Shown here in pieces: positions 1 to 64,000 of a DNA stretch of 64,000 nucleotides (its first letter is position 1; the number at the start of each line of letters is the position of its first letter). The stretch covers positions 166,346,001 through 166,410,000 of the forward strand of contig OZ024742.1 in NCBI GenBank assembly GCA_964016885.1, written 5' to 3'. The notes beneath the pieces were generated by a model that saw only the letters and a program-made list of their open reading frames with translations, was not told the origin of the DNA and searched no databases. Position numbers and translations under genes: made by a program. Source of the stretch: Eledone cirrhosa. Taxonomy: Eukaryota.

Positions 1-1130
1 AATTTGTAAAAAAAAATCAGGGGGAGATAATTTGTAAAAAAAATCAGGGGGAGATAATTTGTAAAAAAAATCAAGGGGAGATAATTTCCAGCCGTCCAAG
101 GGGAGATAATTTTCAGCCGTCCAAGGGGAGATAATTTCCCGCCAGCCAAGGGAAGATAATATTTAAAAAATGAGGCGGAGATAATTTGTAAAAAAATCAA
201 GGGGAGATAATTTCCAGCTGTCCAAGGGGAGGTAATATCTAGCCGTCCAAGGGGAGATAATTTCCAGCCGTCCAAGGGGAGATAATTTCCAGCCGTCCAA
301 GGGTAGATAATATCCAGCCGTCCAAGGAGACATATTTTCCAGCCGTCCAAGGAGAGGTAATTTCTAGCCGTCCAAGGGGAGATAATTTCCAGCCGTCCAA
401 GGGGAGATAATTTAAAAAAAAATCAGGCGGAGATAATTTGTAAAAAAAATCAAGGGGAGATAATTTGCAACCGTCCAAGGGGACATAATTTTCAGTCGTC
501 CAAGGAGAGGTAATTTCTAGCCGTACAAGGGGAGATAATTTCCAGCCGTCCAAGGGGAGATAATTTCCAGCCGTCCAAGGGGAGATAATTTTTTTTTAAA
601 AATCAGGCGGAGATAATTTGTAAAAAAAAAATCAGGGGGAGATAATTTGTAAAAAAAAATCAGGGGGAGATAATTTGTAAAAAAAAATCAGGGGGAGATA
701 ATTTGTAAAAAAAATCAAGGGGAGATAATTTCCAGCCGTCCAAGGGAAGATAATTTCCAGCCCTCCAAGGGGCTATGATTTCCAGCGTCCAAGGGGAGAT
801 AATTTCCAGCCAGCGAAGGGGAGATAATTGTTTTAAAAAAATCATTGGGAGATTTGTAAAAAAAATCAGGGGGAGATAATTAATAAAAAAAATCAAGGGG
901 AGATAATTTCCAGCCGTCCAAGGGGAGGTAATATCTAGCCGTCCAAGGGGAGATAATTTCCAGCCGTCCAAGGGGAGATAATTTCCAGCCGTCCAAGGGT
1001 AGATAATATCCAGCCGTCCAAGGAGACATATTTTCCCGCCGTCCAAGGAAAGGTAATTTCTAGCCGTCCAAGGGGAGATAAATTCCAGCCTCCAAGGGGA
1101 GATAATTTCCAGCCAGCCAAGGGGAGATAA
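1..1130 (+). repeat. Terminal part of a rearranged beta-family unit
   Basis: Beta markers AATGAGGCGG (~170), GCAACCGTCC (~467), CAGTCGTCC (~493), CCGTACAAG (~521) and ATCATTGGGAG (~841). Confidence 0.75.
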
Positions 1131-1915
1131 TTTGTAAAAAAATCAGGGGGAGATAATTTGTAAAAAAAATCAGGGGTAGATAATTTGTAAAAAAAAATCA
1201 GGGGGAGATAATTTGTAAAAAAAAATCAGGGGGAGATAATTTGTAAAAAAAATCAAGGGGAGATAATTTCCAGCCGTCCAAGGAGAGATAATTTAAAAAA
1301 AAAATCAGGCGGAGATAATTTGTAAAAAAAAATCAGGGGGAGATAATTTGGAAAAAAAAATCAGGGGGAGATAATTTGTAAAAAAAATCAAGGGGAGATA
1401 ATTTCCAGCCGTCCAAGGGGAGATAATTTCCAGCCGTCCAAGGGGAGATAATTTTTTAAAAAAAATCAGGCGGAGATAATTTGTAAAAAAAATCAGGGAG
1501 AGATAATTTGTAAAAAAAAATCAGGGGGAGATAATTTGTAAAAAAAAATCAGGGGGAGATAATTTCCAGCCGTCCAAGGTAAGATAATTTCCAGCCCTCC
1601 AAGGGGCTATAATTTCCAGCCGTCCAAGGGTAGATAATATCCAGCCGTCCAAGTAGACATATTTTCCAGCCGTTCAAGGAGAGGTAATTTCTAGCCGTCC
1701 AAGGGGAGATAAATTCCAGCCTCCAAGGGGAGATAATTTCCAGCCAGCCAAGGGGAGATAATTTGTAAAAAAATCAGGGGGAGATAATTTGTAAAAAAAA
1801 TCAGGGGGAGATAATTTGTAAAAAAAAATCAGGGGGAGATAATTTGTAAAAAAAAATCAGGGGGAGATAATTTGTAAAAAAAAATCAGGGGGAGATAATT
1901 TGTAAAAAAAATCAA

Positions 1916-2090
1916 GGGGAGATAATTTCCAGCCGTCCAAGGGGAGATAATTTTCAGCCGTCCAAGGGGAGATAATTTCCAGCCGTCCAAGGGGAGATAA
2001 TTTCCATCCTTCCAAGGGGAGATAATTTCCAGCCGTCCAAGGGGAGATAATTTTCAGCCGTCCAAGGGGAGATAATTTCCCGCCAGCCAA
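1916..2090 (+). repeat. Representative run of type A monomers (25 bp, GGGGAGATAATTTCCAGCCGTCCAA)
   Basis: Seven consecutive 25 bp units, with variants TTTTCAGCC, CCATCCTTCC and a terminal CCCGCCAGCC. The same cassette recurs near 5825, 9981, 12999, 25697, 30390, 43088, 47781, 51800 and 60566, matching the repeated 77 aa ORF in the track. Confidence 0.95.
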
Positions 2091-5000
2091 GGGAAGATAA
2101 TATTTTAAAAAATCAGGCGGAGATAATTTGTAAAAAAAATCAGGGGGAGATAATTTGTAAAAAAATCAGGGGGAGATAATTTGTAAAAAAAAAATCAGGG
2201 GGAGATAATTTGTAAAAAAAATCAGGGGGAGATAATTTGTAAAAAAAAATCAGGGGTAGATAATTTGTAAAAAAAAATCAGGGGGAGATAATTTGTAAAA
2301 AAAAATCAGGGGGAGATAATTTGTAAAAAAAATCAGGGGGAGATAATTTGTAAAAAAAAATCAGGGGGAGATAATTTCCGGCCGTCCAAGGGGAGATAAT
2401 TTTCAGCCGTCCAAGGGGAGATAATTTCCCGCCAGCCAAGGGAAGATAATATTTAAAAAAATCAGGCGGAGATAATTTTTAAAAAAAATCAGAGGGAGAT
2501 AATTTGTAAAAAAATCAGGGGGAGATAATTTGTAAAAAAAATCAAGGGGAGATAATTTCCAGCCGTCCAAGGGGAGGTAATATCTAGCCGTCCAAGGGGA
2601 GATAATTTCCAGCCGTCCAAGTGGAGATAATTTCCAGCCGTCCAAGGGTAGATAATATCCAGCCGTCCAAGGAGACATATTTTCCAGCCGTCCAAGGAGA
2701 GGTAATTTCTAGCCGTCCAAGGGGAGATAAATTCCAGCCTCCAAGGGGAGATAATTTCCAGCCAGCCAAGGGGAGATAATTTGTAAAAAAAATCAGGGGG
2801 AGATAATTTGTAAAAAAAATCAGGGGGAGATAATTTTTAAAAAAATCAGGGGGAGATAATTTGTAAAAAAAAATCAGGGGGTGATAATTTGTAAAAAAAA
2901 ATCAGGGGGAGATAATTTGTAAAAAAAATCAAGGGGAGATAATTTCCAGCCGTCGAAGGGAAGATAATTTCCAGCCCTCCAAGGGGCTATAATTTCCAGC
3001 GTCCAAGGGGAGATAATTTCCAGCCGTCCAAGGGGAGATAATTTCCAGCCGTCCAAGGGTAGATAATATCCAGCCGTCCAAGTAGACATTTTCCAGCCGT
3101 CCAAGGAGAGGTAATTTCTAGCCGTCCAAGGGGAGATAAATTCCAGCCTCCAAGGGGAGATAATTTCCAGCCAGCCAAGGGGAGATAATTTGTAAAAAAA
3201 TCAGGGGGAGATAATTTGTAAAAAAAATCAGGGGGAGATAATTTGTAAAAAAAAATCAGGGGGAGATAATTTGTAAAAACAATCAGGGGGAGATAATTTG
3301 TAAAAAAAATCAGGGGGAGATAATTTGTAAAAAAAATCAAGGGGAGATAATTTCCAGCCGTCCAAGGGGAGATAATTTTCAGCCGTCCAAGGGGAGATAA
3401 TTTCCAGCCGTCCAAGGGGAGATAATTTCCATCCTTCCAAGGGGAGATAATTTCCAGCCGTCCAAGGGGAGATAATTTTCAGCCGTCCAAGGGGAGATAA
3501 TTTCCCGCCAGCCAAGGGAAGATAATATTTTAAAAAATCAGGCGGAGATAATTTGTAAAAAAAATCAGGGGGAGATAATTTGTAAAAAAATCAGGGGGAG
3601 ATAATTTGTAAAAAAAAAATCAGGGGGAGATAATTTGTAAAAAAAATCAGGGGGAGATAATTTGTAAAAAAAAATCAGGGGTAGATAATTTGTAAAAAAA
3701 AATCAGGGGGAGATAATTTGTAAAAAAAAAATCAGGGGGAGATAATTTGTAAAAAAAATCAAGGGGAGATAATTTCCAGCCGTCCAAGGAGAGATAATTT
3801 TTAAAAAAAATCAGGCGGAGATAATTTGTAAAAAAAAATCAAGGGGAGATAATTTGTAAAAAAAAATCAAGGGGAGATAATTTGTAAAAAAAATCAAGGG
3901 GAGATAATTTCCAGCCGTCCAAGGGAAGATAATTTCCAGCACTCCAAGGGGCTATAATTTCCAGTGTCCAAGGGGAGATAATTTCCAGCCAGCGAAGGGG
4001 AGATAATTTTTTTAAAAAAATCAGGGGGAGATATGTAAAAAAAATCAGAGGGAGATAATTTCTAAAAAAAATCAAAGGGAGATAATTTCCAGCCGTCCAA
4101 AGAGAGATAATTTCTAGCCGTCCAAGGGGAGATAATTTCCAGCCAAGGGGAGATAATTTCCAGCCGTCCAAGGGGAGATAATTATTTAAAAAATCAGGTG
4201 GAGATAATTTGTAAAAAAAATCAGGGGGAGATAATTTGTAAAAACAAAATCAAGGGCAGATAATTTCCAGCTGTCCAAGGGGAGATAATTTCCAGCCGTG
4301 CAAGGGGAGATAATTTCCAGCCGTCCAAGGGGAGATAATTTCCATCCTTCCAAGGGGAGATAATGTCCAGCCGTCCAAGGGGAGATAATTTCCCGCCAGC
4401 CAAGGGAAGATAATTTTTAAAAAAATCAGGCGGAGATTGTAAAAAAAATCAGGGGGAGATAATTTGTAAAAAAAAAATCAGGGGGAGATAATTTGTAAAA
4501 AAAATCAGGGGTAGATAATTTGTAAAAAAAAATCAGGGGGAGATAATTTGTAAAAAAAAATCAGGGGGAGATAATTTCTAAAAAAATCAAGGGGAGATAA
4601 TATGCAGCCGTCCAAGGGGAGATAATTTTCAGCCGTCCAAGGAGAGGTAATTTCTAGCCGTCCAAGGGGAGATAATTTCCAGCCGTCCAAGGGGAGATAA
4701 TTTCCAGCCGTCCAAGGGGAGATAGTTTTTTTAAAAAAATCAGGCGGAGATAATTTGTAAAAAAAAAATCAGGGGGAGATAATTTGTAAAAAAAAATCAG
4801 GGGGAGATAATTTGTAAAAAAAAATCAGGGGGAGATAATTTGTAAAAAAAATCAGGGGGAGATAATTAGTAAAAAAAAATCAAGGGGAGATAATTTCCAG
4901 CCGTCCAAGGGGAGGTAATATCTAGCCGTCCAAGGGGAGATAATTTCCAGCCGTCCAAGGGGAGATAATTTCCAGCCGTCCAAGGGTAGATAATATCCAG

Positions 5001-7692
5001 CCGTCCAAGTAGACATATTTTCCAGCCGTCCAAGGAGAGGTAATTTCTAGCCGTCCAAGGGGAGATAAATTCCAGCCTCCAAGGGGAGATAATTTACAGC
5101 CAGCCAAGGGGAGATAATTTGTAAAAAAATCAGGGGGAGATAATTTGTAAAAAAAATCAGGGGGAGATAATTTGTAAAAAAAAATCAGGGGGAGATAATT
5201 TGTAAAAAAAATCAAGGGGAGATAATTTGTAAAAAAAAATCAGGGGGAGATAATTTGTAAAAAAAAATCAGGGGGAGATAATTTGTAAAAAAAAATCAGG
5301 GGGAGATAATTTGTAAAAAAAATCAAGGGGAGATAATTTCCAGCCGTCCAAGGAGAGATAATTTAAAAAAAAAATCAGGCGGAGATAATTTGTAAAAAAA
5401 ATCAGGGGGAGATAATTTGTAAAAAAAAATCAGGGGGAGATAATTTGTAAAAAAAAATCAGGGGGAGATAATTTCCAGCCGTCCAAGGTAAGATAATTTC
5501 CAGCCCTCCAAGGGGCTATAATTTCCAGCCGTCCAAGGGTAGATAATATCCAGCCGTCCAAGTAGACATATTTTCCAGCCGTTCAAGGAGAGGTAATTTC
5601 TAGCCGTCCAAGGGGAGATAAATTCCAGCCTCCAAGGGGAGATAATTTCCAGCCAGCCAAGGGGAGATAATTTGTAAAAAAATCAGGGGGAGATAATTTG
5701 TAAAAAAAATCAGGGGGAGATAATTTGTAAAAAAAAATCAGGGGGAGATAATTTGTAAAAAAAAATCAGGGGGAGATAATTTGTAAAAAAAAATCAGGGG
5801 GAGATAATTTGTAAAAAAAATCAAGGGGAGATAATTTCCAGCCGTCGAAGGGGAGATAATTTTCAGCCGTCCAAGGGGAGATAATTTCCAGCCGTCCAAG
5901 GGGAGATAATTTCCATCCTTCCAAGGGGAGATAATTTCCAGCCGTCCAAGGGGAGATAATTTTCAGCCGTCCAAGGGGAGATAATTTCCCGCCAGCCAAG
6001 GGAAGATAATATTTTAAAAAATCAGGCGGAGATAATTTGTAAAAAAAATCAGGGGGAGATAATTTGTAAAAAAATCAGGGGGAGATAATTTGTAAAAAAA
6101 AAATCAGGGGGAGATAATTTGTAAAAAAAATCAGGGGGAGATAATTTGTAAAAAAAAATCAGGGGTAGATAATTTGTAAAAAAAAATCAGGGGGAGATAA
6201 TTTGTAAAAAAAAATCAGGGGGAGATAATTTGTAAAAAAAATCAGGGGGAGATAATTTGTAAAAAAAAATCAGGGGGAGATAATTTCCGGCCGTCCAAGG
6301 GGAGATAATTTTCAGCCGTCCAAGGGGAGATAATTTCCCGCCAGCCAAGGGAAGATAATATTTAAAAAAATCAGGCGGAGATAATTTGTAAAAAAAATCA
6401 GGGGGAGATAATTTGTAAAAAAATCAGGGGGAGATAATTTGTAAAAAAAATCAAGGGGAGATAATTTCCAGCCGTCCAAGGGGAGGTAATATCTAGCCGT
6501 CCAAGGGGAGATAATTTCCAGCCGTCCAAGTGGAGATAATTTCCAGCCGTCCAAGGGTAGATAATATCCAGCCGTCCAAGGAGACATATTTTCCAGCCGT
6601 CCAAGGAGAGGTAATTTCTAGCCGTCCAAGGGGAGATAAATTCCAGCCTCCAAGGGGAGATAATTTCCAGCCAGCCAAGGGGAGATAATTTGTAAAAAAA
6701 ATCAGGGGGAGATAATTTGTAAAAAAAATCAGGGGGAGATAATTTGTAAAAAAATCAGGGGGAGATAATTTGTAAAAAAAAAATCAGGGGGCGATAATTT
6801 GTAAAAAAAATCAGGGGGAGATGATTTGTAAAAAAAAATCAGGGGTAGATAATTTGTAAAAAAAAATCAGGGGGTGATAATTTGTAAAAAAAAATCAGGG
6901 GGAGATAATTTGTAAAAAAAATCAAGGGGAGATAATTTCCAGCCGTCGAAGGGAAGATAATTTCCAGCCCTCCAAGGGGCTATAATTTCCAGCGTCCAAG
7001 GGGAGATAATTTCCAGCCGTCCAAGGGGAGATAATTTCCAGCCGTCCAAGGGTAGATAATATCCAGCCGTCCAAGTAGACATTTTCCAGCCGTCCAAGGA
7101 GAGGTAATTTCTAGCCGTCCAAGGGGAGATAAATTCCAGCCTCCAAGGGGAGATAATTTCCAGCCAGCCAAGGGGAGATAATTTGTAAAAAAATCAGGGG
7201 GAGATAATTTGTAAAAAAAATCAGGGGGAGATAATTTGTAAAAAAAAATCAGGGGGAGATAATTTGTAAAAACAATCAGGGGGAGATAATTTGTAAAAAA
7301 AATCAGGGGGAGATAATTTGTAAAAAAAATCAAGGGGAGATAATTTCCAGCCGTCCAAGGGGAGATAATTTTCAGCCGTCCAAGGGGAGATAATTTCCAG
7401 CCGTCCAAGGGGAGATAATTTCCATCCTTCCAAGGGGAGATAATTTCCAGCCGTCCAAGGGGAGATAATTTCCCGCCAGCCAAGGGAAGATAATATTTTA
7501 AAAAATCAGGCGGAGATAATTTGTAAAAAAAATCAGGGGGAGATAATTTGTAAAAAAATCAGGGGGAGATAATTTGTAAAAAAAAAATCAGGGGGAGATA
7601 ATTTGTAAAAAAAATCAGGGGGAGTTAATTTGTAAAAAAAAATCAGGGGTAGATAATTTGTAAAAAAAAATCAGGGGGAGATAATTTGTAAA

Positions 7693-10600
7693 AAAAAAAT
7701 CAGGGGGAGATAATTTGTAAAAAAAATCAAGGGGAGATAATTTCCAGCCGTCCAAGGAGAGATAATTTTTAAAAAAAATCAGGCGGAGATAATTTGTAAA
7801 AAAAAATCAAGGGGAGATAATTTGTAAAAAAAAATCAAGGGGAGATAATTTGTAAAAAAAATCAAGGGGAGATAATTTCCAGCCGTCCAAGGGAAGATAA
7901 TTTCCAGCACTCCAAGGGGCTATAATTTCCAGTGTCCAAGGGGAGATAATTTCCAGCCAGCGAAGGGGAGATAATTTTTTTAAAAAAATCAGGGGGAGAT
8001 ATGTAAAAAAAATCAGAGGGAGATAATTTCTAAAAAAAATCAAAGGGAGATAATTTCCAGCCGTCCAAAGAGAGATAATTTCTAGCCGTCCAAGGGGAGA
8101 TAATTTCCAGCCAAGGGGAGATAATTTCCAGCCGTCCAAGGGGAGATAATTATTTAAAAAATCAGGTGGAGATAATTTGTAAAAAAAATCAGGGGGAGAT
8201 AATTTGTAAAAACAAAATCAAGGGCAGATAATTTCCAGCTGTCCAAGGGGAGATAATTTCCAGCCGTGCAAGGGGAGATAATTTCCAGCCGTCCAAGGGG
8301 AGATAATTTCCATCCTTCCAAGGGGAGATAATGTCCAGCCGTCCAAGGGGAGATAATTTCCCGCCAGCCAAGGGAAGATAATTTTTAAAAAAATCAGGCG
8401 GAGATTGTAAAAAAAATCAGGGGGAGATAATTTGTAAAAAAAAAATCAGGGGGAGATAATTTGTAAAAAAAATCAGGGGTAGATAATTTGTAAAAAAAAA
8501 TCAGGGGGAGATAATTTGTAAAAAAAAATCAGGGGGAGATAATTTCTAAAAAAATCAAGGGGAGATAATATGCAGCCGTCCAAGGGGAGATAATTTTCAG
8601 CCGTCCAAGGAGAGGTAATTTCTAGCCGTCCAAGGGGAGATAATTTCCAGCCGTCCAAGGGGAGATAATTTCCAGCCGTCCAAGGGGAGATAGTTTTTTT
8701 AAAAAAATCAGGCGGAGATAATTTGTAAAAAAAAAATCAGGGGGAGATAATTTGTAAAAAAAAATCAGGGGGAGATAATTTGTAAAAAAAAATCAGGGGG
8801 AGATAATTTGTAAAAAAAATCAGGGGGAGATAATTAGTAAAAAAAATCAAGGGGAGATAATTTCCAGCCGTCCAAGGGGAGGTAATAGCTAGCCGTCCAA
8901 GGGGAGATAATTTCCAGCCGTCCAAGGGGAGATAATTTCCAGCCGTCCAAGGGTAGATAATATCCAGCCGTCCAAGTAGACATATTTTCCAGCCGTCCAA
9001 GGAGAGGTAATTTCTAGCCGTCCAAGGGGAGATAAATTCCAGCCTCCAAGGGGAGATAATTTCCAGCCAGCCAAGGGGAGATAATTTGTAAAAAAATCAG
9101 GGGGAGATAATTTGTAAAAAAAATCAGGGGGAGATAATTTGTAAAAAAAAATCAGGGGGAGATAATTTGTAAAAAAAAATCAGGGGGAGATAATTTGTAA
9201 AAAAAATCAAGGGGAGATAATTTGTAAAAAAAAATCAGGGGGAGATAATTTGTAAAAAAAAATCAGGGGGAGATAATTTGTAAAAAAAAATCAGGGGGAG
9301 ATAATTTGTAAAAAAAATCAAGGGGAGATAATTTCCAGCCGTCCAAGGAGAGATAATTTAAAAAAAAAATCAGGCGGAGATAATTTGTAAAAAAAAATCA
9401 GGGGGAGATAATTTGTAAAAAAAAATCAGGGGGAGATAATTTGTAAAAAAAATCAAGGGGAGATAATTTCCAGCCGTCCAAGGGGAGATAATTTCCAGCC
9501 GTCCAAGGGGAGATAATTTTTTTAAAAAAATCAGGCGGAGATAATTTGTAAAAAAAATCAGGGGGAGATAATTTGTAAAAAAAAATCAGGGGGAGATAAT
9601 TTGTAAAAAAAAATCAGGGGGAGATAATTTCCAGCCGTCCAAGGTAAGATAATTTCCAGCCCTCCAAGGGGCTATAATTTCCAGCCGTCCAAGGGTAGAT
9701 AATATCCAGCCGTCCAAGTAGACATATTTTCCAGCCGTCCAAGGAGAGGTAATTTCTAGCCGTCCAAGGGGAGATAAATTCCAGCCTCCAAGGGGAGATA
9801 ATTTCCAGCCAGCCAAGGGGAGATAATTTGTAAAAAAATCAGGGGGAGATAATTTGTAAAAAAAATCAGGGGGAGATAATTTGTAAAAAAAAATCAGGGG
9901 GAGATAATTTGTAAAAAAAAATCAGGGGGAGATAATTTGTAAAAAAAAATCAGGGGGAGATAATTTGTAAAAAAAATCAAGGGGAGATAATTTCCAGCCG
10001 TCCAAGGGGAGATAATTTTCAGCCGTCCAAGGGGAGATAATTTCCAGCCGTCCAAGGGGAGATAATTTCCATCCTTCCAAGGGGAGATAATTTCCAGCCG
10101 TCCAAGGGGAGATAATTTTCAGCCGTCCAAGGGGAGATAATTTCCCGCCAGCCAAGGGAAGATAATATTTTAAAAAATCAGGCGGAGATAATTTGTAAAA
10201 AAAATCAGGGGGAGATAATTTGTAAAAAAATCAGGGGGAGATAATTTGTAAAAAAAAAATCAGGGGGAGATAATTTGTAAAAAAAATCAGGGGGAGATAA
10301 TTTGTAAAAAAAAATCAGGGGTAGATAATTTGTAAAAAAAAATCAGGGGGAGATAATTTGTAAAAAAAATCAGGGGGAGATAATTTGTAAAAAAAATCAG
10401 GGGGAGATAATTTGTAAAAAAAAATCAGGGGGAGATAATTTGTAAAAAAAAATCAGGGGTAGATAATTTGTAAAAAAAAATCAGGGGGAGATAATTTGTA
10501 AAAAAAAATCAGGGGGAGATAATTTGTAAAAAAAATCAGGGGGAGATAATTTGTAAAAAAAAATCAGGGGGAGATAATTTCCGGCCGTCCAAGGGGAGAT

Positions 10601-13600
10601 AATTTTCAGCCGTCCAAGGGGAGATAATTTCCCGCCAGCCAAGGGAAGATAATATTTAAAAAAATCAGGCGGAGATAATTTGTAAAAAAAATCAGGGGGA
10701 GATAATTTGTAAAAAAATCAGGGGGAGATAATTTGTAAAAAAAATCAAGGGGAGATAATTTCCAGCCGTCCAAGGAGAGATAATTTTTAAAAAAAATCAG
10801 GCGGAGATAATTTGTAAAAAAAAATCAAGGGGAGATAATTTGTAAAAAAAAATCAAGGGGAGATAATTTGTAAAAAAAATCAAGGGGAGATAATTTCCAG
10901 CCGTCCAAGGGAAGATAATTTCCAGCACTCCAAGGGGCTATAATTTCCAGTGTCCAAGGGGAGATAATTTCCAGCCAGCGAAGGGGAGATAATTTTTTTA
11001 AAAAAATCAGGGGGAGATATGTAAAAAAAATCAGAGGGAGATAATTTCTAAAAAAAATCAAAGGGAGATAATTTCCAGCCGTCCAAAGAGAGATAATTTC
11101 TAGCCGTCCAAGGGGAGATAATTTCCAGCCAAGGGGAGATAATTTCCAGCCGTCCAAGGGGAGATAATTATTTAAAAAATCAGGTGGAGATAATTTGTAA
11201 AAAAAATCAGGGGGAGATAATTTGTAAAAACAAAATCAAGGGCAGATAATTTCCAGCTGTCCAAGGGGAGATAATTTCCAGCCGTGCAAGGGGAGATAAT
11301 TTCCAGCCGTCCAAGGGGAGATAATTTCCATCCTTCCAAGGGGAGATAATGTCCAGCCGTCCAAGGGGAGATAATTTCCCGCCAGCCAAGGGAAGATAAT
11401 TTTTAAAAAAATCAGGCGGAGATTGTAAAAAAAATCAGGGGGAGATAATTTGTAAAAAAAAAATCAGGGGGAGATAATTTGTAAAAAAAATCAGGGGTAG
11501 ATAATTTGTAAAAAAAAATCAGGGGGAGATAATTTGTAAAAAAAAATCAGGGGGAGATAATTTCTAAAAAAATCAAGGGGAGATAATATGCAGCCGTCCA
11601 AGGGGAGATAATTTTCAGCCGTCCAAGGAGAGGTAATTTCTAGCCGTCCAAGGGGAGATAATTTCCAGCCGTCCAAGGGGAGATAATTTCCAGCCGTCCA
11701 AGGGGAGATAGTTTTTTTAAAAAAATCAGGCGGAGATAATTTGTAAAAAAAAAATCAGGGGGAGATAATTTGTAAAAAAAAATCAGGGGGAGATAATTTG
11801 TAAAAAAAAATCAGGGGGAGATAATTTGTAAAAAAAATCAGGGGGAGATAATTAGTAAAAAAAATCAAGGGGAGATAATTTCCAGCCGTCCAAGGGGAGG
11901 TAATATCTAGCCGTCCAAGGGGAGATAATTTCCAGCCGTCCAAGGGGAGATAATTTCCAGCCGTCCAAGGGTAGATAATATCCAGCCGTCCAAGTAGACA
12001 TATTTTCCAGCCGTCCAAGGAGAGGTAATTTCTAGCCGTCCAAGGGGAGATAAATTCCAGCCTCCAAGGGGAGATAATTTCCAGCCAGCCAAGGGGAGAT
12101 AATTTGTAAAAAAATCAGGGGGAGATAATTTGTAAAAAAAATCAGGGGGAGATAATTTGTAAAAAAAAATCAGGGGGAGATAATTTGTAAAAAAAAATCA
12201 GGGGGAGATAATTTGTAAAAAAAATCAAGGGGAGATAATTTGTAAAAAAAAATCAGGGGGAGATAATTTGTAAAAAAAAATCAGGGGGAGATAATTTGTA
12301 AAAAAAAATCAGGGGGAGATAATTTGTAAAAAAAATCAAGGGGAGATAATTTCCAGCCGTCCAAGGAGAGATAATTTAAAAAAAAAATCAGGCGGAGATA
12401 ATTTGTAAAAAAAAATCAGGGGGAGATAATTTGTAAAAAAAAATCAGGGGGAGATAATTTGTAAAAAAAATCAAGGGGAGATAATTTCCAGCCGTCCAAG
12501 GGGAGATAATTTCCAGCCGTCCAAGGGGAGATAATTTTTTTAAAAAAATCAGGCGGAGATAATTTGTAAAAAAAATCAGGGGGAGATAATTTGTAAAAAA
12601 AAATCAGGGGGAGATAATTTGTAAAAAAAAATCAGGGGGAGATAATTTCCAGCCGTCCAAGGTAAGATAATTTCCAGCCCTCCAAGGGGCTATAATTTCC
12701 AGCCGTCCAAGGGTAGATAATATCCAGCCGTCCAAGTAGACATATTTTCCAGCCGTCCAAGGAGAGGTAATTTCTAGCCGTCCAAGGGGAGATAAATTCC
12801 AGCCTCCAAGGGGAGATAATTTCCAGCCAGCCAAGGGGAGATAATTTGTAAAAAAATCAGGGGGAGATAATTTGTAAAAAAAATCAGGGGGAGATAATTT
12901 GTAAAAAAAAATCAGGGGGAGATAATTTGTAAAAAAAAATCAGGGGGAGATAATTTGTAAAAAAAAATCAGGGGGAGATAATTTGTAAAAAAAATCAAGG
13001 GGAGATAATTTCCAGCCGTCCAAGGGGAGATAATTTTCAGCCGTCCAAGGGGAGATAATTTCCAGCCGTCCAAGGGGAGATAATTTCCATCCTTCCAAGG
13101 GGAGATAATTTCCAGCCGTCCAAGGGGAGATAATTTTCAGCCGTCCAAGGGGAGATAATTTCCCGCCAGCCAAGGGAAGATAATATTTTAAAAAATCAGG
13201 CGGAGATAATTTGTAAAAAAAATCAGGGGGAGATAATTTGTAAAAAAATCAGGGGGAGATAATTTGTAAAAAAAAAATCAGGGGGAGATAATTTGTAAAA
13301 AAAATCAGGGGGAGATAATTTGTAAAAAAAAATCAGGGGTAGATAATTTGTAAAAAAAAATCAGGGGGAGATAATTTGTAAAAAAAATCAGGGGGAGATA
13401 ATTTGTAAAAAAAATCAGGGGGAGATAATTTGTAAAAAAAAATCAGGGGGAGATAATTTGTAAAAAAAAATCAGGGGTAGATAATTTGTAAAAAAAAATC
13501 AGGGGGAGATAATTTGTAAAAAAAAATCAGGGGGAGATAATTTGTAAAAAAAATCAGGGGGAGATAATTTGTAAAAAAAAATCAGGGGGAGATAATTTCC

Positions 13601-13793
13601 GGCCGTCCAAGGGGAGATAATTTTCAGCCGTCCAAGGGGAGATAATTTCCCGCCAGCCAAGGGAAGATAATATTTAAAAAAATCAGGCGGAGATAATTTG
13701 TAAAAAAAATCAGGGGGAGATAATTTGTAAAAAAATCAGGGGGAGATAATTTGTAAAAAAAATCAAGGGGAGATAATTTCCAGCCGTCCAAGG
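7693..13793 (+). repeat. 3,018 bp tandem duplication (two copies plus a short overhang)
   Basis: ORF starts pair at a constant 3,018 offset: 7807/10825, 8189/11207, 8473/11491, 8737/11755, 8889/11907, 9586/12604, 9922/12940. The CGGCCG marker is at 10582/13600. One substitution was seen (TAATAGCT near 8888 vs TAATATCT). Confidence 0.92.
13198..13590 (+). repeat. Representative long run of type B monomers (26-29 bp, GGGGGAGATAATTTGT-A7..10-TCA)
   Basis: About 14 consecutive units that differ mainly in A-tract length. The GGGGTAG variant occurs at 13340 and 13478. Confidence 0.95.
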
Positions 13794-53300: not shown

Positions 53301-55300
53301 AAAATCAAGGGGAGATAATTTCCAGCCGTCCAAGGGGAGATAATTTTCAGCCGTCCAAGGGGAGATAATTTCCAGCCGTCCAAGGGGAGATAATTTCCAT
53401 CCTTCCAAGGGGAGATAATTTCCAGCCGTCCAAGGGGAGATAATTTTCAGCCGTCCAAGGGGAGATAATTTCCCGCCAGCCAAGGGAAGATAATATTTTA
53501 AAAAATCAGGCGGAGATAATTTGTAAAAAAAATCAGGGGGAGATAATTTGTAAAAAAATCAGGGGGAGATAATTTGTAAAAAAAAAATCAGGGGGAGATA
53601 ATTTGTAAAAAAAATCAGGGGGAGATAATTTGTAAAAAAAATCAGGGGTAGATAATTTGTAAAAAAAAATCAGGGGGAGATAATTTGTAAAAAAAAAATC
53701 AGGGGGAGATAATTTGTAAAAAAAATCAAGGGGAGATAATTTCCAGCCGTCCAAGGAGAGATAATTTTTAAAAAAAATCAGGCGGAGATAATTTGTAAAA
53801 AAAAATCAAGGGGAGATAATTTGTAAAAAAAAATCAAGGGGAGATAATTTGTAAAAAAAATCAAGGGGAGATAATTTCCAGCCGTCCAAGGGAAGATAAT
53901 TTCCAGCACTCCAAGGGGCTATAATTTCCAGTGTCCAAGGGGAGATAATTTCCAGCCAGCGAAGGGGAGATAATTTTTTTAAAAAAATCAGGGGGAGATA
54001 TGTAAAAAAAATCAGAGGGAGATAATTTCTAAAAAAAATCAAAGGGAGATAATTTCCAGCCGTCCAAAGAGAGATAATTTCTAGCCGTCCAAGGGGAGAT
54101 AATTTCCAGCCAAGGGGAGATAATTTCCAGCCGTCCAAGGGGAGATAATTATTTAAAAAATCAGGTGGAGATAATTTGTAAAAAAAATCAGGGGGAGATA
54201 ATTTGTAAAAACAAAATCAAGGGCAGATAATTTCCAGCTGTCCAAGGGGAGATAATTTCCAGCCGTGCAAGGGGAGATAATTTCCAGCCGTCCAAGGGGA
54301 GATAATTTCCATCCTTCCAAGGGGAGATAATGTCCAGCCGTCCAAGGGGAGATAATTTCCCGCCAGCCAAGGGAAGATAATTTTTAAAAAAATCAGGCGG
54401 AGATTGTAAAAAAAATCAGGGGGAGATAATTTGTAAAAAAAAAATCAGGGGGAGATAATTTGTAAAAAAAATCAGGGGTAGATAATTTGTAAAAAAAAAT
54501 CAGGGGGAGATAATTTGTAAAAAAAAATCAGGGGGAGATAATTTCTAAAAAAATCAAGGGGAGATAATATGCAGCCGTCCAAGGGGAGATAATTTTCAGC
54601 CGTCCAAGGAGAGGTAATTTCTAGCCGTCCAAGGGGAGATAATTTCCAGCCGTCCAAGGGGAGATAATTTCCAGCCGTCCAAGGGGAGATAGTTTTTTTA
54701 AAAAAATCAGGCGGAGATAATTTGTAAAAAAAAAATCAGGGGGAGATAATTTGTAAAAAAAAATCAGAGGGAGATAATTTGTAAAAAAAAATCAGGGGGA
54801 GATAATTTGTAAAAAAAATCAGGGGGAGATAATTAGTAAAAAAAATCAAGGGGAGATAATTTCCAGCCGTCCAAGGGGAGGTAATATCTAGCCGTCCAAG
54901 GGGAGATAATTTCCAGCCGTCCAAGGGGAGATAATTTCCAGCCGTCCAAGGGTAGATAATATCCAGCCGTCCAAGTAGACATATTTTCCAGCCGTCCAAG
55001 GAGAGGTAATTTCTAGCCGTCCAAGGGGAGATAAATTCCAGCCTCCAAGGGGAGATAATTTCCAGCCAGCCAAGGGGAGATAATTTGTAAAAAAATCAGG
55101 GGGAGATAATTTGTAAAAAAAATCAGGGGGAGATAATTTGTAAAAAAAAATCAGGGGGAGATAATTTGTAAAAAAAAATCAGGGGGAGATAATTTGTAAA
55201 AAAAATCAGGGGGAGATAATTTGTAAAAAAAAATCAGGGGGAGATAATTTGTAAAAAAAAATCAGGGGGAGATAATTTGTAAAAAAAAATCAGGGGGAGA
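47400..55300 (+). repeat. Two tandem alpha-family HOR units with a 4,018-4,019 bp period
   Basis: ORF offsets 47722/51741, 48268/52287 and 48823/52842 are 4019; 49788/53806 and 50870/54888 are 4018. CGGCCG is at 48244 and 52263. Confidence 0.88.
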
Positions 55301-55639
55301 TAATTTGTAAAAAAAATCAAGGGGAGATAATTTCCAGCCGTCCAAGGGGAGATAATTTCCAGCCGTCCAAGGGGAGGTAATATCTAGCCGTCCAAGGGGA
55401 GATAATTTCCAGCCGTCCAAGAGGAGATAATTTCCAGCCGTCCAAGGGTAGATAATATCCAGCCGTCCAAGGAGACATATTTTCCAGCCGTCCAAGGAGA
55501 GATAAATTCCAGCCTCCAAGGGGAGATAATTTGTAAAAAAAATCAGGGGGAGATAATTTGTAAAAAAAATCAGGGGGAGATAATTTGTAAAAAAAAATCA
55601 GGGGGAGATAATTTGTAAAAAAAATCAGGGGGAGATAAT

Positions 55640-58600
55640 TTGTAAAAACAAATCAAGGGGAGATAATTTCCAGCCGTCCAAGGGGAGATAATTTTCAGCC
55701 GCCCAAGGGGAGATAATTTCCCGCCAGCCAAGGGAAGATAATATTTAAAAAATCAGGCGGAGATAATTTGTAAAAAAAATCAGGGGGAGATAATTTGTAA
55801 AAAAATCAGGGGGAGATAATTTGTAAAAAAAATCAGGAGGAGATGATTTGTAAAAAAAATCAGGGGTAGATAATTTGTAAAAAAAAATCAGGGGGAGATA
55901 ATTTGTAAAAAAAAATCAGGGGGAGATAATTTGTAAAAAAAATCAAGAGGAGATAATTTCCAGCCGTCCAAGGGGAGATAATTTTCAGCCGTCCAAGGGG
56001 AGATAATTTCCAGCCGTCCAAGGGGAGATAATTTCCATCCTTCCAAGGGGAGATAATTTCCAGCCGTCCAAGGGGAGATAATTTCCCGCCAACCAAGGGA
56101 AGATAATTTTTAAAAAAATCAGGCGGAGATTGTAAAAAAAATCAGGGGGAGATAATTTGTAAAAAAATCAGGGGGAGATAATTTGTAAAAAAAAAATCAG
56201 GGGGAGATAATTTGTAAAAAAAATCAGGGGGAGATAATTTGTAAAAAAAAATCAAGGGGAGATAATTTGTACAAAAAATCAGGGGTATATAATTTGTAAA
56301 AAAAAATCAGGGGGAGATAATTTGTAAAAAAAAATCAGGGGGAGATAATTTGTAAAAAAAATCAAGGGGAGATAATTTGCAGCCGTCCAAGGGGAGATAA
56401 TTTTCAGCCGTCCAAGGAGAGGTAATTTCTAGCCGTCCAAGGTGAGATAATATCCAGCCGTCCAAGGGGAGATAATTTCCAGCCGTCCAAGGGGAGATAA
56501 TTTTAAAAAAAAAACAGGCGAAGATAATTTGTAAAAAAAAAATCAGGGGGAGATAATTTGTAAAAAAAAATCAGGGGGAGATAATTTGTAAAAAAAATCA
56601 GGGGGAGGTAATTTGTAAAAAAAATCAAGGGGAGATAATTTCCAGCCGTCCAAGGGAAGATAATTTCCAGCCCTCCAAGGGGCTATAATTTCCAGCGTCC
56701 AAGGGGAGATAATTTCCAGCCAGCGAAGGGGAGATAATTTTTTTTTTTTTAAATCAGGGGGACATAATTTGTAAAAAAAATCAGGGGGAGATAATTTGTA
56801 AAAAAAATTAAGGGGAGATAATTTGTAAAAAAAAATCAAGGGGAGATAATTTCCAGCCGTCCAAGGAGAGGTAATTTCTAGACGTCCAAGGGGAGATAAT
56901 TTCCAGCCGTCCAAGGGGAGATAATTTCCAGCCGTCCAAGGGTAGATAATATCCAGCCGTCCAAGGAGACATATTTTCCAGCTTTCCAAGGAGAGGTAAT
57001 TTCTAGCCGTCCAAGGGGAGATAAATTCCAGCCTCCAAGGGGAGATAATTTCCAGCCAGCCAAGGGGAGATAATTTGTAAAAAAAATCAGGGGGAGATAA
57101 TTTGTAAAAAAAATCAGCGGGAGATAATTTGTAAAAAAAATCAGGGGGAGATAATTTCCAGCCGTCCAAGGGGAGATAATTTTCAGCCGTCCAAGGGGAG
57201 ATAATTTCCCGCCAGCCAAGGGAAGATAATATTTAAAAAATGAGGCGGAGATAATTTGTAAAAAAAATCAGGGGGAGATAATTTGTAAAAAAATCAGGGG
57301 GAGATAATTTGTAAAAAAAAAATCAGGGGGAGATAATTTGTAAAAAAAATCAGGGGGAGATAATTTGTAAAAAAAAATCAGGGGTAGATAATTTGTAAAA
57401 AAAAATCAGGGGGAGATAATTTGTAAAAAAAATCAGGGGGAGATAATTTATAAAAAAAATCAAGGGGAGATAATTTCCAGCCGTCCAAGGGAAGATAATT
57501 TCAAGCCCTCCAAGGGGCTATAATTTCCAGTGTCCAAGGGGAGATAATTTCCAGCCAGCGAAGGGGAGATAATTTTTTTTTAAAAATCAGGGGGAGATTT
57601 GTAAAAAAAATCAGGGGGAGATAATTTGTAAAAAAAATCAAAGGGAGATAATTTCCAGCCGTCCAAAGAGATAATTTCTAGCCGTCCAAGGGGAGATAAT
57701 TTCGAGCCAAGGGGAGATAATTTCCAGCCGTCCAAGGGGAGATAATTTTTTAAAAAATCAGGTGGAGATAATTTGTAAAAAAAATCAGGGGGAGATAATT
57801 TGTAAAAACAAAATCAAGGGCAGATAATTTCCAGCTGTCCAAGGAGAGATAATTTCCAGCCGTGCAAGGGGAGATAATTTCCAGCCGTCCAAGGGGAGAT
57901 AATTTCCATCCTTCCAAGGGGAGATAATTTCCAGCCGTCCAAGGGGAGATAATTTCCCGCCAGCCAAGGGAAGATAATTTTTTAAAAAATCAGGCGGAGA
58001 TTGTAAAAAAAATCAGGGGGAGATAATTTGTAAAAAAATCAGGGGGAGATAATTTGTAAAAAAATCAAGGGGAGATAATTTCCAGCTGTCCAAGGGGAGG
58101 TAATATCTAGCCGTCCAAGGGGAGATAATTTCCAGCCGTCCAAGGGGAGATAATTTCCAGCCGTCCAAGGGTAGATAATATCCAGCCGTCCAAGGAGACA
58201 TATTTTCCAGCCGTCCAAGGAGAGGTAATTTCTAGCCGTCCAAGTGGAGATAAATTCCAGCCTCCAAGGGGAGATAATTTCCAGCCAGCCAAGGGGAGAT
58301 AATTTGTAAAAAAATCAGGGGGAGATAATTTGTAAAAAAAATCAGGGGGAGATAATTTGTAAAAAAAAATCAGGGGGAGATAATTTGTAAAAAAAATCAG
58401 GGGGAGATAATTTGTAAAAAAAATCAAGGGGAGATAATTTCCAGCCGTCCAAGGGGAGATAATTTTCAGCCGTCCAAGGGGAGATAATTTCCCGCCAGCC
58501 AAGGGAAGATAATATTTAAAAAATGAGGCGGAGATAATTTGTAAAAAAAAATCAGGGGTAGATAATTTGTAAAAAAAATCAGGGGGAGATAATTTGTAAA

Positions 58601-59520
58601 AAAAATCAAGGGGAGATAATTTCCAGCCGTCCAAGGAGAGATAATTTTTAAAAAAAATCAGGCGGAGATAATTTGTAAAAAAAAAATCAGGGGGAGATAA
58701 TTTGTAAAAAAAAATCAGGGGGAGATAATTTGTAAAAAAAATCAAGGGGAGATAATTTCCAGCCGTCCAAGGGGAGATAATTTTCAGCCGTCCAAGGGGA
58801 GATAATTTCCAGCCGTCCAAGGGGAGATAATTTTAAAAAAAAATCAGGCGGAGATAATTTGTAAAAAAAATCAAGGGGAGATAATTTGCAACCGTCCAAG
58901 GGGACATAATTTTCAGTCGTCCAAGGAGAGGTAATTTCTAGCCGTACAAGGGGAGATAATTTCCAGCCGTCCAAGGGGAGATAATTTCCAGCCGTCCAAG
59001 GGGAGATAATTTTTTTTTAAAAATCAGGCGGAGATAATTTGTAAAAAAAAAATCAGGGGGAGATAATTTGTAAAAAAAAATCAGGGGGAGATAATTTGTA
59101 AAAAAAAATCAGGGGGAGATAATTTGTAAAAAAAATCAAGGGGAGATAATTTCCAGCCGTCCAAGGGAAGATAATTTCCAGCCCTCCAAGGGGCTATAAT
59201 TTCCAGCGTCCAAGGGGAGATAATTTCCAGCCAGCGAAGGGGAGATAATTGTTTTAAAAAAATCATTGGGAGATTTGTAAAAAAAATCAGGGGGAGATAA
59301 TTAATAAAAAAAATCAAGGGGAGATAATTTCCAGCCGTCCAAGGGGAGGTAATATCTAGCCGTACAAGGGGAGATAATTTCCAGCCGTCCAAGGGTAGAT
59401 AATATCCAGCCGTCCAAGGAGACATATTTTCCAGCCGTCCAAGGAGAGGTAATTTCTAGCCGTCCAAGGGGAGATAAATTCCAGCCTCCAAGGGGAGATA
59501 ATTTCCAGCCAGCCAAGGGG
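55640..59520 (+). repeat. Single beta-family HOR unit
   Basis: Full beta marker series: CCGCCCAAGG ~55700, GGGGTATAT ~56285, GACGTC 56881, TTCGAGCC ~57702, GCAACC ~58889, ATCATTGGGAG ~59263. Confidence 0.85.
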
Positions 59521-62500
59521 AGATAATTTGTAAAAAAATCAGGGGGAGATAATTTGTAAAAAAAATCAGGGGTAGATAATTTGTAAAAAAAAATCAGGGG
59601 GAGATAATTTGTAAAAAAAAATCAGGGGGAGATAATTTGTAAAAAAAATCAAGGGGAGATAATTTCCAGCCGTCCAAGGAGAGATAATTTAAAAAAAAAA
59701 TCAGGCGGAGATAATTTGTAAAAAAAAATCAGGGGGAGATAATTTGTAAAAAAAAATCAGGGGGAGATAATTTGTAAAAGAAATCAAGGGGAGATAATTT
59801 CCAGCCGTCCAAGGGGAGATAATTTCCAGCCGTCCAAGGGGAGATAATTTTTTTAAAAAAATCAGGCGGAGATAATTTGTAAAAAAAAATCAGGGGGTGA
59901 TAATTTCCAGCCGTCCAAGGTAAGATAATTTCCAGCCCTCCAAGGGGCTATAATTTCCAGCCGTCCAAGGGTAGATAATATCCAGCCGTCCAAGTAGACA
60001 TATTTTCCAGCCGTCCAAGGAGAGGTAATTTCTAGCCGTCCAAGGGGAGATAAATTCCAGCCTCCAAGGGGAGATAATTTCCAGCCAGCCAAGGGGAGAT
60101 AATTTGTAAAAAAATCAGGGGGAGATAATTTGTAAAAAAAATCAGGGGGAGATAATTTGTAAAAAAAAATCAGGGGGAGATAATTTGTAAAAAAAAATCA
60201 GGAGGAGATAATTTGTAAAAAAAAATCAGGGGGAGATAATTTCCAGCCGTCCAAGGGGAGATAATTTTCAGCCGTCCAAGGGTAGATAATATCCAGCCGT
60301 CCAAGTAGACATTTTCCAGCCGTCCAAGGAGAGGTAATTTCTAGCCGTCCAAGGGGAGATAAATTCCAGCCTCCAAGGGGAGATAATTTCCAGCCAGCCA
60401 AGGGGAGATAATTTGTAAAAAAATCAGGGGGAGATAATTTGTAAAAAAAATCAGGGGGAGATAATTTGTAAAAAAAAATCAGGGGGAGATAATTTGTAAA
60501 AAAAAATCAGGGGGAGATAATTTGTAAAAAAAAATCAGGGGGAGATAATTTGTAAAAAAAATCAAGGGGAGATAATTTCCAGCCGTCCAAGGGGAGATAA
60601 TTTTCAGCCGTCCAAGGGGAGATAATTTCCAGCCGTCCAAGGGGAGATAATTTCCATCCTTCCAAGGGGAGATAATTTCCAGCCGTCCAAGGGGAGATAA
60701 TTTTCAGCCGTCCAAGGGGAGATAATTTCCCGCCAGCCAAGGGAAGATAATATTTTAAAAAATCAGGCGGAGATAATTTGTAAAAAAAATCAGGGGGAGA
60801 TAATTTGTAAAAAAATCAGGGGGAGATAATTTGTAAAAAAAAAATCAGGGGGAGATAATTTGTAAAAAAAATCAGGGGGAGATAATTTGTAAAAAAAAAT
60901 CAGGGGTAGATAATTTGTAAAAAAAAATCAGGGGGAGATAATTTGTAAAAAAAAATCAGGGGGAGATAATTTGTAAAAAAAATCAGGGGGAGATAATTTG
61001 TAAAAAAAAATCAGGGGGAGATAATTTCCGGCCGTCCAAGGGGAGATAATTTTCAGCCGTCCAAGGGGAGATAATTTCCCGCCAGCCAAGGGAAGATAAT
61101 ATTTAAAAAAATCAGGCGGAGATAATTTGTAAAAAAAATCAGGGGGAGATAATTTGTAAAAAAATCAGGGGGAGATAATTTGTAAAAAAAATCAAGGGGA
61201 GATAATTTCCAGCCGTCCAAGGGGAGGTAATATCTAGCCGTCCAAGGGGAGATAATTTCCAGCCGTCCAAGAGGAGATAATTTCCAGCCGTCCAAGGGTA
61301 GATAATATCCAGCCGTCCAAGGAGACATATTTTCCAGCCGTCCAAGGAGAGGTAATTTCTAGCCGTCCAAGGGGAGATAAATTCCAGCCTCCAAGGGGAG
61401 ATAATTTCCAGCCAGCCAAGGGGAGATAATTTGTAAAAAAAATCAGGGGGAGATAATTTGTAAAAAAAATCAGGGGGAGATAATTTGTAAAAAAATCAGG
61501 GGGAGATAATTTGTAAAAAAAAAATCAGGGGGAGATAATTTGTAAAAAAAATCAGGGGGAGATGATTTGTAAAAAAAAATCAGGGGTAGATAATTTGTAA
61601 AAAAAAATCAGGGGGTGATAATTTGTAAAAAAAAATCAGGGGGAGATAATTTGTAAAAAAAATCAAGGGGAGATAATTTCCAGCCGTCGAAGGGAAGATA
61701 ATTTCCAGCCCTCCAAGGGGCTATAATTTCCAGCGTCCAAGGGGAGATAATTTCCAGCCGTCCAAGGGGAGATAATTTTCAGCCGTCCAAGGGGAGATAA
61801 TTTCCCGCCAGCCAAGGGAAGATAATATTTTAAAAAATCAGGCGGAGATAATTTGTAAAAAAAATCAGGGGGAGATAATTTGTAAAAAAATCAGGGGGAG
61901 ATAATTTGTAAAAAAAAAATCAGGGGGAGATAATTTGTAAAAAAAATCAGGGGGAGATAATTTGTAAAAAAAAATCAGGGGTAGATAATTTGTAAAAAAA
62001 AATCAGGGGGAGATAATTTGTAAAAAAAAAATCAGGGGGAGATAATTTGTAAAAAAAATCAAGGGGAGATAATTTCCAGCCGTCCAAGGAGAGATAATTT
62101 TTAAAAAAAATCAGGCGGAGATAATTTGTAAAAAAAAATCAAGGGGAGATAATTTGTAAAAAAAAATCAAGGGGAGATAATTTGTAAAAAAAATCAAGGG
62201 GAGATAATTTCCAGCCGTCCAAGGGAAGATAATTTCCAGCACTCCAAGGGGCTATAATTTCCAGTGTCCAAGGGGAGATAATTTCCAGCCAGCGAAGGGG
62301 AGATAATTTTTTTAAAAAAATCAGGGGGAGATATGTAAAAAAAATCAGAGGGAGATAATTTCTAAAAAAAATCAAAGGGAGATAATTTCCAGCCGTCCAA
62401 AGAGAGATAATTTCTAGCCGTCCAAGGGGAGATAATTTCCAGCCAAGGGGAGATAATTTCCAGCCGTCCAAGGGGAGATAATTATTTAAAAAATCAGGTG

Positions 62501-64000
62501 GAGATAATTTGTAAAAAAAATCAGGGGGAGATAATTTGTAAAAACAAAATCAAGGGCAGATAATTTCCAGCTGTCCAAGGGGAGATAATTTCCAGCCGTG
62601 CAAGGGGAGATAATTTCCAGCCGTCCAAGGGGAGATAATTTCCATCCTTCCAAGGGGAGATAATGTCCAGCCGTCCAAGGGGAGATAATTTCCCGCCAGC
62701 CAAGGGAAGATAATTTTTAAAAAAATCAGGCGGAGATTGTAAAAAAAATCAGGGGGAGATAATTTGTAAAAAAAAAATCAGGGGGAGATAATTTGTAAAA
62801 AAAATCAGGGGTAGATAATTTGTAAAAAAAAATCAGGGGGAGATAATTTGTAAAAAAAAATCAGGGGGAGATAATTTCTAAAAAAATCAAGGGGAGATAA
62901 TATGCAGCCGTCCAAGGGGAGATAATTTTCAGCCGTCCAAGGAGAGGTAATTTCTAGCCGTCCAAGGGGAGATAATTTCCAGCCGTCCAAGGGGAGATAA
63001 TTTCCAGCCGTCCAAGGGGAGATAGTTTTTTTAAAAAAATCAGGCGGAGATAATTTGTAAAAAAAAAATCAGGGGGAGATAATTTGTAAAAAAAAATCAG
63101 GGGGAGATAATTTGTAAAAAAAAATCAGGGGGAGATAATTTGTAAAAAAAATCAGGGGGAGATAATTAGTAAAAAAAATCAAGGGGAGATAATTTCCAGC
63201 CGTCCAAGGGGAGGTAATATCTAGCCGTCCAAGGGGAGATAATTTCCAGCCGTCCAAGGGGAGATAATTTCCAGCCGTCCAAGGGTAGATAATATCCAGC
63301 CGTCCAAGTAGACATATTTTCCAGCCGTCCAAGGAGAGGTAATTTCTAGCCGTCCAAGGGGAGATAAATTCCAGCCTCCAAGGGGAGATAATTTCCAGCC
63401 AGCCAAGGGGAGATAATTTGTAAAAAAATCAGGGGGAGATAATTTGTAAAAAAAATCAGGGGGAGATAATTTGTAAAAAAAAATCAGGGGGAGATAATTT
63501 GTAAAAAAAAATCAGGGGGAGATAATTTGTAAAAAAAATCAAGGGGAGATAATTTGTAAAAAAAAATCAGGGGGAGATAATTTGTAAAAAAAAATCAGGG
63601 GGAGATAATTTGTAAAAAAAAATCAGGGGGAGATAATTTGTAAAAAAAATCAAGGGGAGATAATTTCCAGCCGTCCAAGGAGAGATAATTTAAAAAAAAA
63701 ATCAGGCGGAGATAATTTGTAAAAAAAATCAGGGGGAGATAATTTGTAAAAAAAAATCAGGGGGAGATAATTTGTAAAAAAAATCAGGGGGAGATAATTT
63801 CCAGCCGTCCAAGGTAAGATAATTTCCAGCCCTCCAAGGGGCTATAATTTCCAGCCGTCCAAGGGTAGATAATATCCAGCCGTCCAAGTAGACATATTTT
63901 CCAGCCGTCCAAGGAGAGGTAATTTCTAGCCGTCCAAGGGGAGATAAATTCCAGCCTCCAAGGGGAGATAATTTCCAGCCAGCCAAGGGGAGATAATTTG
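59520..64000 (+). repeat. Alpha-family HOR sequence with internal rearrangements, running off the window end
   Basis: CGGCCG at 61029. ORFs 62139-63729 match 49788-51378 at a constant 12,351 offset. Confidence 0.8.

What the first reader, a model, noticed from the sequence alone, without database searches (positions are those of the whole stretch)
1..64000. Two-monomer ('binary') satellite: one constant 13 bp core carrying either a GC-rich or an A-tract tail, arranged hierarchically
Seen: every monomer is GGGGAGATAATTT followed by either CCAGCCGTCCAA (A) or GT-A7..10-TCA (B). Runs of about 1-12 A monomers alternate with runs of about 1-14 B monomers. At least five nested scales are visible: 25-29 bp monomer, 0.2-0.5 kb cassette, ~4 kb HOR, alpha/beta blocks, and a 17.4 kb duplication. 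Established: HORs are known in primate alpha satellite and in many plant and animal centromeres, usually with ~150-180 bp monomers. Inference: I do not recognise this family. Strong conservation of the shared core beside two unrelated tails could mean the core is constrained, for example as a protein-binding site, in a centromeric or telomere-associated array.
Basis: partly seen in the sequence, partly recalled or inferred. Interest (0 to 1): 0.72.

Follow-up and report, generated by a model that had tools for sequence, protein, structure and literature searches.

The report
Two-tailed octopus satellite with fossil ancestry
This window is part of a real satellite DNA, estimated at about 15 million bases, that is built from two short repeat types and sits near the middle of the curled octopus's giant chromosomes; the core shared by the two types mutates as fast as the rest, so it is likely inherited from an older repeat preserved at the array edges rather than a protected protein-binding site, and a centromere role is possible but untested.

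Summary
The window is 2,457 monomers (1,192 A, 1,265 B) in runs, cassettes, two ~4 kb block types and a 17,391 bp duplication. The ~4 kb level is irregular (3.0-4.3 kb), not a fixed HOR.

The constraint argument fails its own test: young substitutions hit core and tails alike (ratio 1.00-1.20).

The genome's COX1 is identical to that of Eledone cirrhosa. The satellite totals about 15-16 Mb, in arrays at 43-63% of the length of the four giant chromosomes, at the midpoint of C21, and on unplaced contigs.

An array edge on C3 preserves a series: a 19-mer with a ~0.9 kb spacer, then a 25-mer with a ~0.3 kb spacer, then A/B. All start with the same core. The spacer's parent repeat lies beside internal TTAGGG tracts.

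Best reading: a pericentromeric heterochromatin satellite whose core is shared by descent and whose A/B pattern is copied from old cassettes. It is not a universal centromere repeat. Apparent hits in other species look like carry-over.

The scan found this family before on other DNA of this genome (e1-10323825, e1-10328835). I found no paper on it.

The parts
1..64000 (+). Uninterrupted two-monomer satellite, 2,457 monomers. It is part of a 2.02 Mb plus-strand array at G000:C3:165,873,500-167,893,250.
251..275 (+). Example A monomer (25 bp; 13 bp core plus GC-rich tail); 359 perfect copies among 1,192 A
1889..1915 (+). Example B monomer ending a B run (27 bp, ends TCAA). B ends in CAA before A in 200 of 229 cases, and in CAG before B in 978 of 1,034.
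1257..16657 (+). Four alpha-type blocks (4,070, 3,995, 3,018 and 4,318 bp)
   Evidence: A-run order
16658..25038 (+). Two beta-type blocks (4,248 and 4,133 bp)
12245..30778 (+). First copy of the 17,391 bp tandem duplication (overlapping match of 18,534 bp, 4 mismatches)
29636..48169 (+). Second copy of the 17,391 bp duplication
47122..63653 (+). Two further alpha blocks, one beta block (55,657-59,652) and one more alpha block

Best explanation
This is a megabase satellite of the curled octopus that is likely pericentromeric heterochromatin, and its two monomers likely share a core because both descend from one composite repeat, not because the core is protected. Shown: the C3 array's 5' edge carries, in order, a 19-bp unit alternating with a 0.83-1.0 kb spacer, then a 25-bp unit (one base from A) alternating with a 0.2-0.36 kb spacer, then modern A/B. 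Every unit and every spacer begins with the same core. Inferred: the short unit grew by slippage (19, 21, 25 bp). The spacer, which always started with a last copy of the core, was replaced by a 27-bp core-plus-A-tract unit (B) that then multiplied into runs. A few ancestral A(m)B(n) cassettes were then copied by unequal exchange or replication slippage at every scale, from one monomer to 17 kb, giving nested but irregular periods. The sequence source of the B tail is not resolved.
For: Layer series on C3. The same 25-mer-plus-spacer layer lies at the 5' end of the C1 array and on C21. 19-, 21- and 25-mers lie side by side on C25. Core and tail mutation rates are equal. Junctions are inherited, not freely reshuffled: the first B after A is canonical in 55 of 228 cases against 945 of 1,034 elsewhere, and only 29 of 229 B-to-A junctions carry the TCAG end that exchange inside the core would give. 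Position: 14 of 16 family loci found lie at 37.5-62.5% of chromosome length, including all six on smaller chromosomes. Neighbours are other satellites and internal TTAGGG tracts. C-bands are centromeric in three other octopods (PMC6160780, passages).
Against: The direction of the series is read from order and copy number, not from an outgroup. No spacer between 126 bp and the 27-bp B was found, and the B tail matches the spacer no better than shuffles do (best 22 of 300). The core persists across at least six tails and at the gap-free join to the next satellite, which a weak functional preference could also produce. Mid-chromosome position is only a proxy for the centromere, and the locus list is incomplete (40 of 654 candidates scored).
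Confidence: 0.62

Rival explanations
1. The A/B array is the active, CENP-A-bearing centromere of the four giant chromosomes. It is the youngest layer of a repeat lineage that marks the central domain of many chromosomes.
For: Multi-megabase homogeneous arrays with very young duplications. Older layers lie at array edges, as in the layered-expansion model (10.1101/2021.07.12.452052, passages). The arrays are central.
Against: Modern arrays were detected on only 5 of 28 chromosome-size contigs. A complete listing of one rare variant gave 69 hits, all on C1-C4 or unplaced contigs, although it also missed the ~0.1 Mb C21 array. C1 has two arrays 27 Mb apart. Old layers were seen on one side only. 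Earlier scan notes list other candidate satellites in the same regions (unchecked).
Confidence: 0.22
2. The core is a constrained protein-binding box (it holds a GATA-type word, recalled consensus), and the tails are interchangeable spacers.
For: The core is retained across the 19-, 21- and 25-mers, A, B, the spacer starts and one satellite junction. Copy-weighted mismatch is slightly lower in the core (A 0.055 vs 0.066; B 0.030 vs 0.040). There is a precedent in Meloidogyne (PMC8097292, abstract).
Against: Young substitutions are not depleted in the core (ratio 1.00-1.20). Common variants hit the GATA word itself (A7>G in 10.7% of A, G6 in 8%). The best-conserved sites are A/T bases in both core and tail.
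Confidence: 0.09
3. The arrays are scars of head-to-head chromosome fusions that made the giant chromosomes, hence minus-strand arrays on the left and plus-strand arrays on the right.
For: C1, C2 and C3 all show minus then plus. The parent repeat adjoins telomeric repeats.
Against: The C3 minus array is bounded by 200-N gaps at both ends, so its orientation is a scaffolding choice. The C1 arrays are 27 Mb apart. Argonauta hians also has a skewed karyotype (longest 223 Mb of 1.52 Gb, L50 5; PMC12682272 supplement 1), so giant chromosomes are not peculiar to this lineage.
Confidence: 0.07

Closest known systems
Human HSat2/HSat3 nested tandem repeats and layered alpha-satellite arrays (10.1101/2021.07.12.452052; passages read)
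   Same: Short monomers carry kilobase periods that vary along the array. Older, diverged layers lie at the edge of a young array.
   Different: There are two monomer types with a shared core. The edge layer is a different, composite unit. The old layer was seen on one side only. There are no CENP-A data and no sequence relation was tested.
Meloidogyne incognita alphaCenH3-associated repeats with a 19-bp box (PMC8097292; abstract only)
   Same: Divergent short monomers share one box.
   Different: There the box is completely conserved, CenH3-bound and shared with related species. Here the core is exact in 63% of monomers and mutates like the tails, and no real copy in another species was shown.
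Heterochromatic interstitial telomeric sequences with associated satellites (recalled, no call)
   Same: The parent repeat adjoins internal degenerate TTAGGG tracts near chromosome middles.
   Different: The A/B arrays sampled hold no TTAGGG tracts (no tandem TTAGGG pair).

Membership tests
Satellite DNA | Head-to-tail array of more than 100 kb, high copy number | tested here: met
   Arrays of 0.1-3 Mb. 15,171 perfect AA dimers genome-wide give an estimate of 15-16.5 Mb. Very high depth in public data of the same species label.
Alpha-satellite-type HOR | Fixed n-mer repeated with a regular period | tested here: not met
   Blocks are 3.0-4.3 kb with two interleaved types; autocorrelation 0.14-0.17 vs 0.087.
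Alpha-satellite-type HOR | Multi-monomer units more alike than neighbouring monomers | tested here: met
   Kilobase matches at over 99% identity; 90 distinct cassettes among 228.
Centromeric satellite | Present on all or most chromosomes | tested here: not met
   Modern array found on C1-C4 and C21 only; older relatives on C6, C8, C13, C14, C25. Small arrays could have been missed.
Centromeric satellite | Internal position consistent with the primary constriction | tested here: inconclusive
   14 of 16 loci at 37.5-62.5% of length; no karyotype or FISH for this species was seen.
Centromeric satellite | CENP-A occupancy | not testable with these tools
   No chromatin data among the 23 runs listed (library not on record for 19 of them).
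Conserved-box repeats (Meloidogyne type) | Box more conserved than the rest of the monomer | tested here: not met
   Core/tail rate ratio 1.00-1.20; p=0.58 and 0.31.
Conserved-box repeats (Meloidogyne type) | Shared with related species | tested here: inconclusive
   Five of 15 runs with other species labels were laid. They showed the same variants at 0.003-0.3% of the own-species depth, which looks like carry-over.
Telomere-associated (subtelomeric) repeat | Located next to chromosome ends | tested here: not met
   All 16 loci are internal; the start of C7 is plain CCCTAA.

The most novel reading that the evidence does not exclude
This is the first cephalopod centromere DNA. One repeat lineage, born beside internal telomeric tracts, marks the centre of at least 10 chromosomes, and its youngest form, the two-monomer array, carries the kinetochore of the four giant chromosomes with its whole ancestry preserved at the edge.
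Probability: 0.2. Interest if true: 0.72.

Novelty: new member of a known kind. Interest (0 to 1): 0.4.

Why it matters
My searches found no centromeric sequence for any cephalopod. This family gives ready FISH probes and a candidate for CENP-A mapping on the giant octopus chromosomes. It also preserves an unusually complete birth record of a satellite, and shows that a constant core with alternative tails can arise by descent without measurable constraint.

Tried and rejected
- Conservation in other species: 20 runs held words. The five runs with other labels that I laid were near-identical at tiny depth, and the one RNA run laid nothing. I did not use this as evidence of homologues or of transcription.
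- Restriction to the four giant chromosomes: my own first reading, disproved by the C21 array.
- Mirror symmetry of the C3 region: unverifiable because of gaps.
- B tail as an inverted piece of the spacer: no better than shuffles.
- Dispersed solo copies of B, suggested by RAD reads that run on unlike: one pattern gave 6 hits, all inside arrays.
- Hairpin-forming DNA: folding was no stronger than mononucleotide shuffles in three stretches.
- Synteny from the supplement of PMC12682272: the stored table is cut, its Eledone rows that I saw are against Vampyroteuthis only, and the figures cannot be seen.
- Monomer strings in papers: 0 hits for the core; 3 listings for three 12-13-mers, all on unrelated subjects by title.
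- Dfam, Repbase and nt could not be searched.

Full report
Observation. The window is one unbroken satellite. A dynamic-programming decomposition gave 2,457 monomers, 1,192 A and 1,265 B, in 149 distinct sequences. The exact 13 bp core occurs 1,558 times, all on the + strand. A runs are 1-12 long and B runs 1-15; 458 runs compare with 1,229 +/- 26 in shuffles. The 228 cassettes measure 106-587 bp. The order of A runs shows two block types, and a 17,391 bp duplication with 4 mismatches in 18,534 bp that ends inside the window. The ~4 kb level is irregular (3.0-4.3 kb; autocorrelation 0.14-0.17 against 0.087). It resembles the nested tandem repeats described for HSat2/3 more than a fixed HOR (passages).

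Organism and place. The window is G000:C3:166,346,001-166,410,000 in a 3.0 Gb genome. The mitochondrial COX1 is identical to a record named Eledone cirrhosa. I saw the lengths of 19 of the contigs C1-C28: four giants of 443, 416, 379 and 379 Mb, then 135 Mb down to 22 Mb, and C28 at 136 Mb.

Extent of the satellite. Perfect AA dimers number 15,171, which scales to about 15-16.5 Mb. Sampling and variant patterns place modern arrays at C1 251.19-252.02 (minus) and 279.16-279.29+ (plus); C2 about 245.9-248.26 (minus) and 248.65-251.1 (plus, interrupted); C3 162.70-165.65 (minus) and 165.87-167.89 (plus); C4 205.5-206.4 (minus); C21 17.62-17.72 (plus); and unplaced contigs. Three of the four variant listings were cut at 100 rows. 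The complete one had 69 hits, none on C5-C28, yet it missed C21, so other small arrays may exist.

Is the core constrained? No. I decomposed 311 kb (the window and 55 loci; 11,897 monomers) and counted young substitutions as rare k-mers with a common one-mismatch neighbour. Core against tail rates were 1.95/1.62, 2.09/1.86, 2.62/2.26 and 1.83/1.82 per kb over four settings. G and C mutate more than A and T in both parts. Common alleles were 17 vs 17 (A) and 10 vs 16 (B), with Fisher p 0.58 and 0.31. The A/B pattern is not made by free exchange at the core either, because junction monomers are distinctive and inherited.

Why the core is shared. The 5' edge of this array keeps a series. At 165.860-165.863 Mb, runs of a 19-bp unit alternate with 831-1,014 bp spacers made of a GCGCATGCGC-rich part, a TTTCG-rich part and an ATTAA-rich part. 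At 165.863-165.873 Mb, runs of a 25-bp unit one base from A alternate with 217-362 bp spacers that have lost the first part. Then A/B begins abruptly. Every unit and spacer starts with the core.

The same layers elsewhere. The 25-mer layer also lies at the 5' end of the C1 array, with spacers down to 126 bp, and on C21 (98% identical to the C3 copy). C25 holds 19-, 21- and inverted 25-mers together. The 19-mer pattern matched at two loci only (12 hits). The spacer without any core occurs on C2, C4, C6, C8, C13, C14 and elsewhere on C3 (40 of 654 candidates scored). Five of the eight such loci fetched lie beside degenerate TTAGGG tracts, one carried the 19-mer, and two had neither. At its 3' end the array joins the next satellite without a gap, exactly at a core. 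I infer that B took the spacer's place as the core-started AT-rich unit after each A run. The origin of its tail letters is unresolved.

Function. Fourteen of 16 family loci lie at 37.5-62.5% of chromosome length (binomial p 3e-7, loci not independent; 6 of 6 on smaller chromosomes, p 2e-4), among other satellites. Other octopods have centromeric C-bands (PMC6160780, passages). This points to the (peri)centromeric domain. The modern array is undetected on most chromosomes, so it is not the universal centromere repeat. I put passive pericentromeric heterochromatin at 0.62, active centromere of the giants at 0.22, a constrained box at 0.09 and a fusion scar at 0.07. The minus-then-plus layout on C1-C3 is intriguing, but the C3 minus array has gaps at both ends.

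Other species. Of 23 runs listed, 15 with other species labels held 6-30% of the words. The five I laid showed the same variants at a peak depth of 170-15,100 against 4.9 million in the own-species run, which I read as carry-over. Real homologues are neither shown nor excluded. A 2026 run of the same species label from another study also holds the repeat (1,213 reads laid).

Literature and novelty. Eight paper searches found no description of this repeat or of a cephalopod centromeric satellite; most subscription journals are not covered. What I saw: PMC12682272 as passages, the text of supplement 1 and rows of supplement 2 (cut, figures unseen); PMC13218726, 10.1101/2025.08.29.672809, PMC10700109, PMC6160780 and 10.1101/2021.07.12.452052 as passages; PMC8097292 as abstract. 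Supplements of the preprints were not consulted and may bear on novelty. The scan's own notes already describe this family on other pieces of the genome. I saw e1-10328835 before examining the edges, so it was a lead; I saw e1-10323825 after my analysis, and it agrees. This report adds the rate test, the C21 and C25 loci, the position statistic, the gap caveat and the carry-over check. Verdict: a real, apparently unpublished satellite of a known kind, interest 0.4.

Noticed in passing
L143 (G000:C3 ~167,893,250), L039, L040, L018: The array joins a 9-bp AT-rich satellite without a gap, exactly at a core; an 11-bp AT-rich satellite follows at 168.1-168.3 Mb. The same two occur in reverse at C3 162.65-162.70 and C2 245.5.
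   Followed up: partly
G000:C3:165.654-165.860 Mb (L026-L035, L064): About 200 kb between the two arrays holds at least three other tandem repeats and LINE-like pieces; a 200-N gap bounds its left side.
   Followed up: partly
L122 (G000:C25 ~17.478 Mb): A small locus with 19-, 21- and 25-bp units and a fold-back inversion at a self-complementary GGCCGGCC-type word.
   Followed up: partly
L069, L071, L072, L074, L075 (C14, C8, C13, C3, C4): Internal degenerate TTAGGG arrays next to the composite parent repeat, near the chromosome middle on C8, C13 and C14.
   Followed up: partly
L036, L064, L074: The parent repeat is dense in GCGCATGCGC and CCGGAAAT words, which resemble NRF1 and ETS sites (recalled, no call).
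   Followed up: no
G000:C1:251.77-251.81 Mb: An island of the older 25-mer-plus-spacer layer inside the modern array.
   Followed up: no
L120, L131 (C2 250.9, C4 205.38 Mb): The same 7-bp CACCAAG-type satellite lies in or beside the arrays on two chromosomes.
   Followed up: no
G000:C2 (115.2, 163.8, 206.2, 345.1 Mb): Nuclear copies of mitochondrial COX1; all seven nuclear matches are on C2.
   Followed up: no
L001 (G000:C3:160.0 Mb): Broken endonuclease/reverse-transcriptase reading frame resembling a Tx1/L1-type LINE (recalled, no family search).
   Followed up: no
runs X5-X19: Fourteen other species labels hold words of this satellite; the five runs laid look like low-level carry-over between libraries.
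   Followed up: partly
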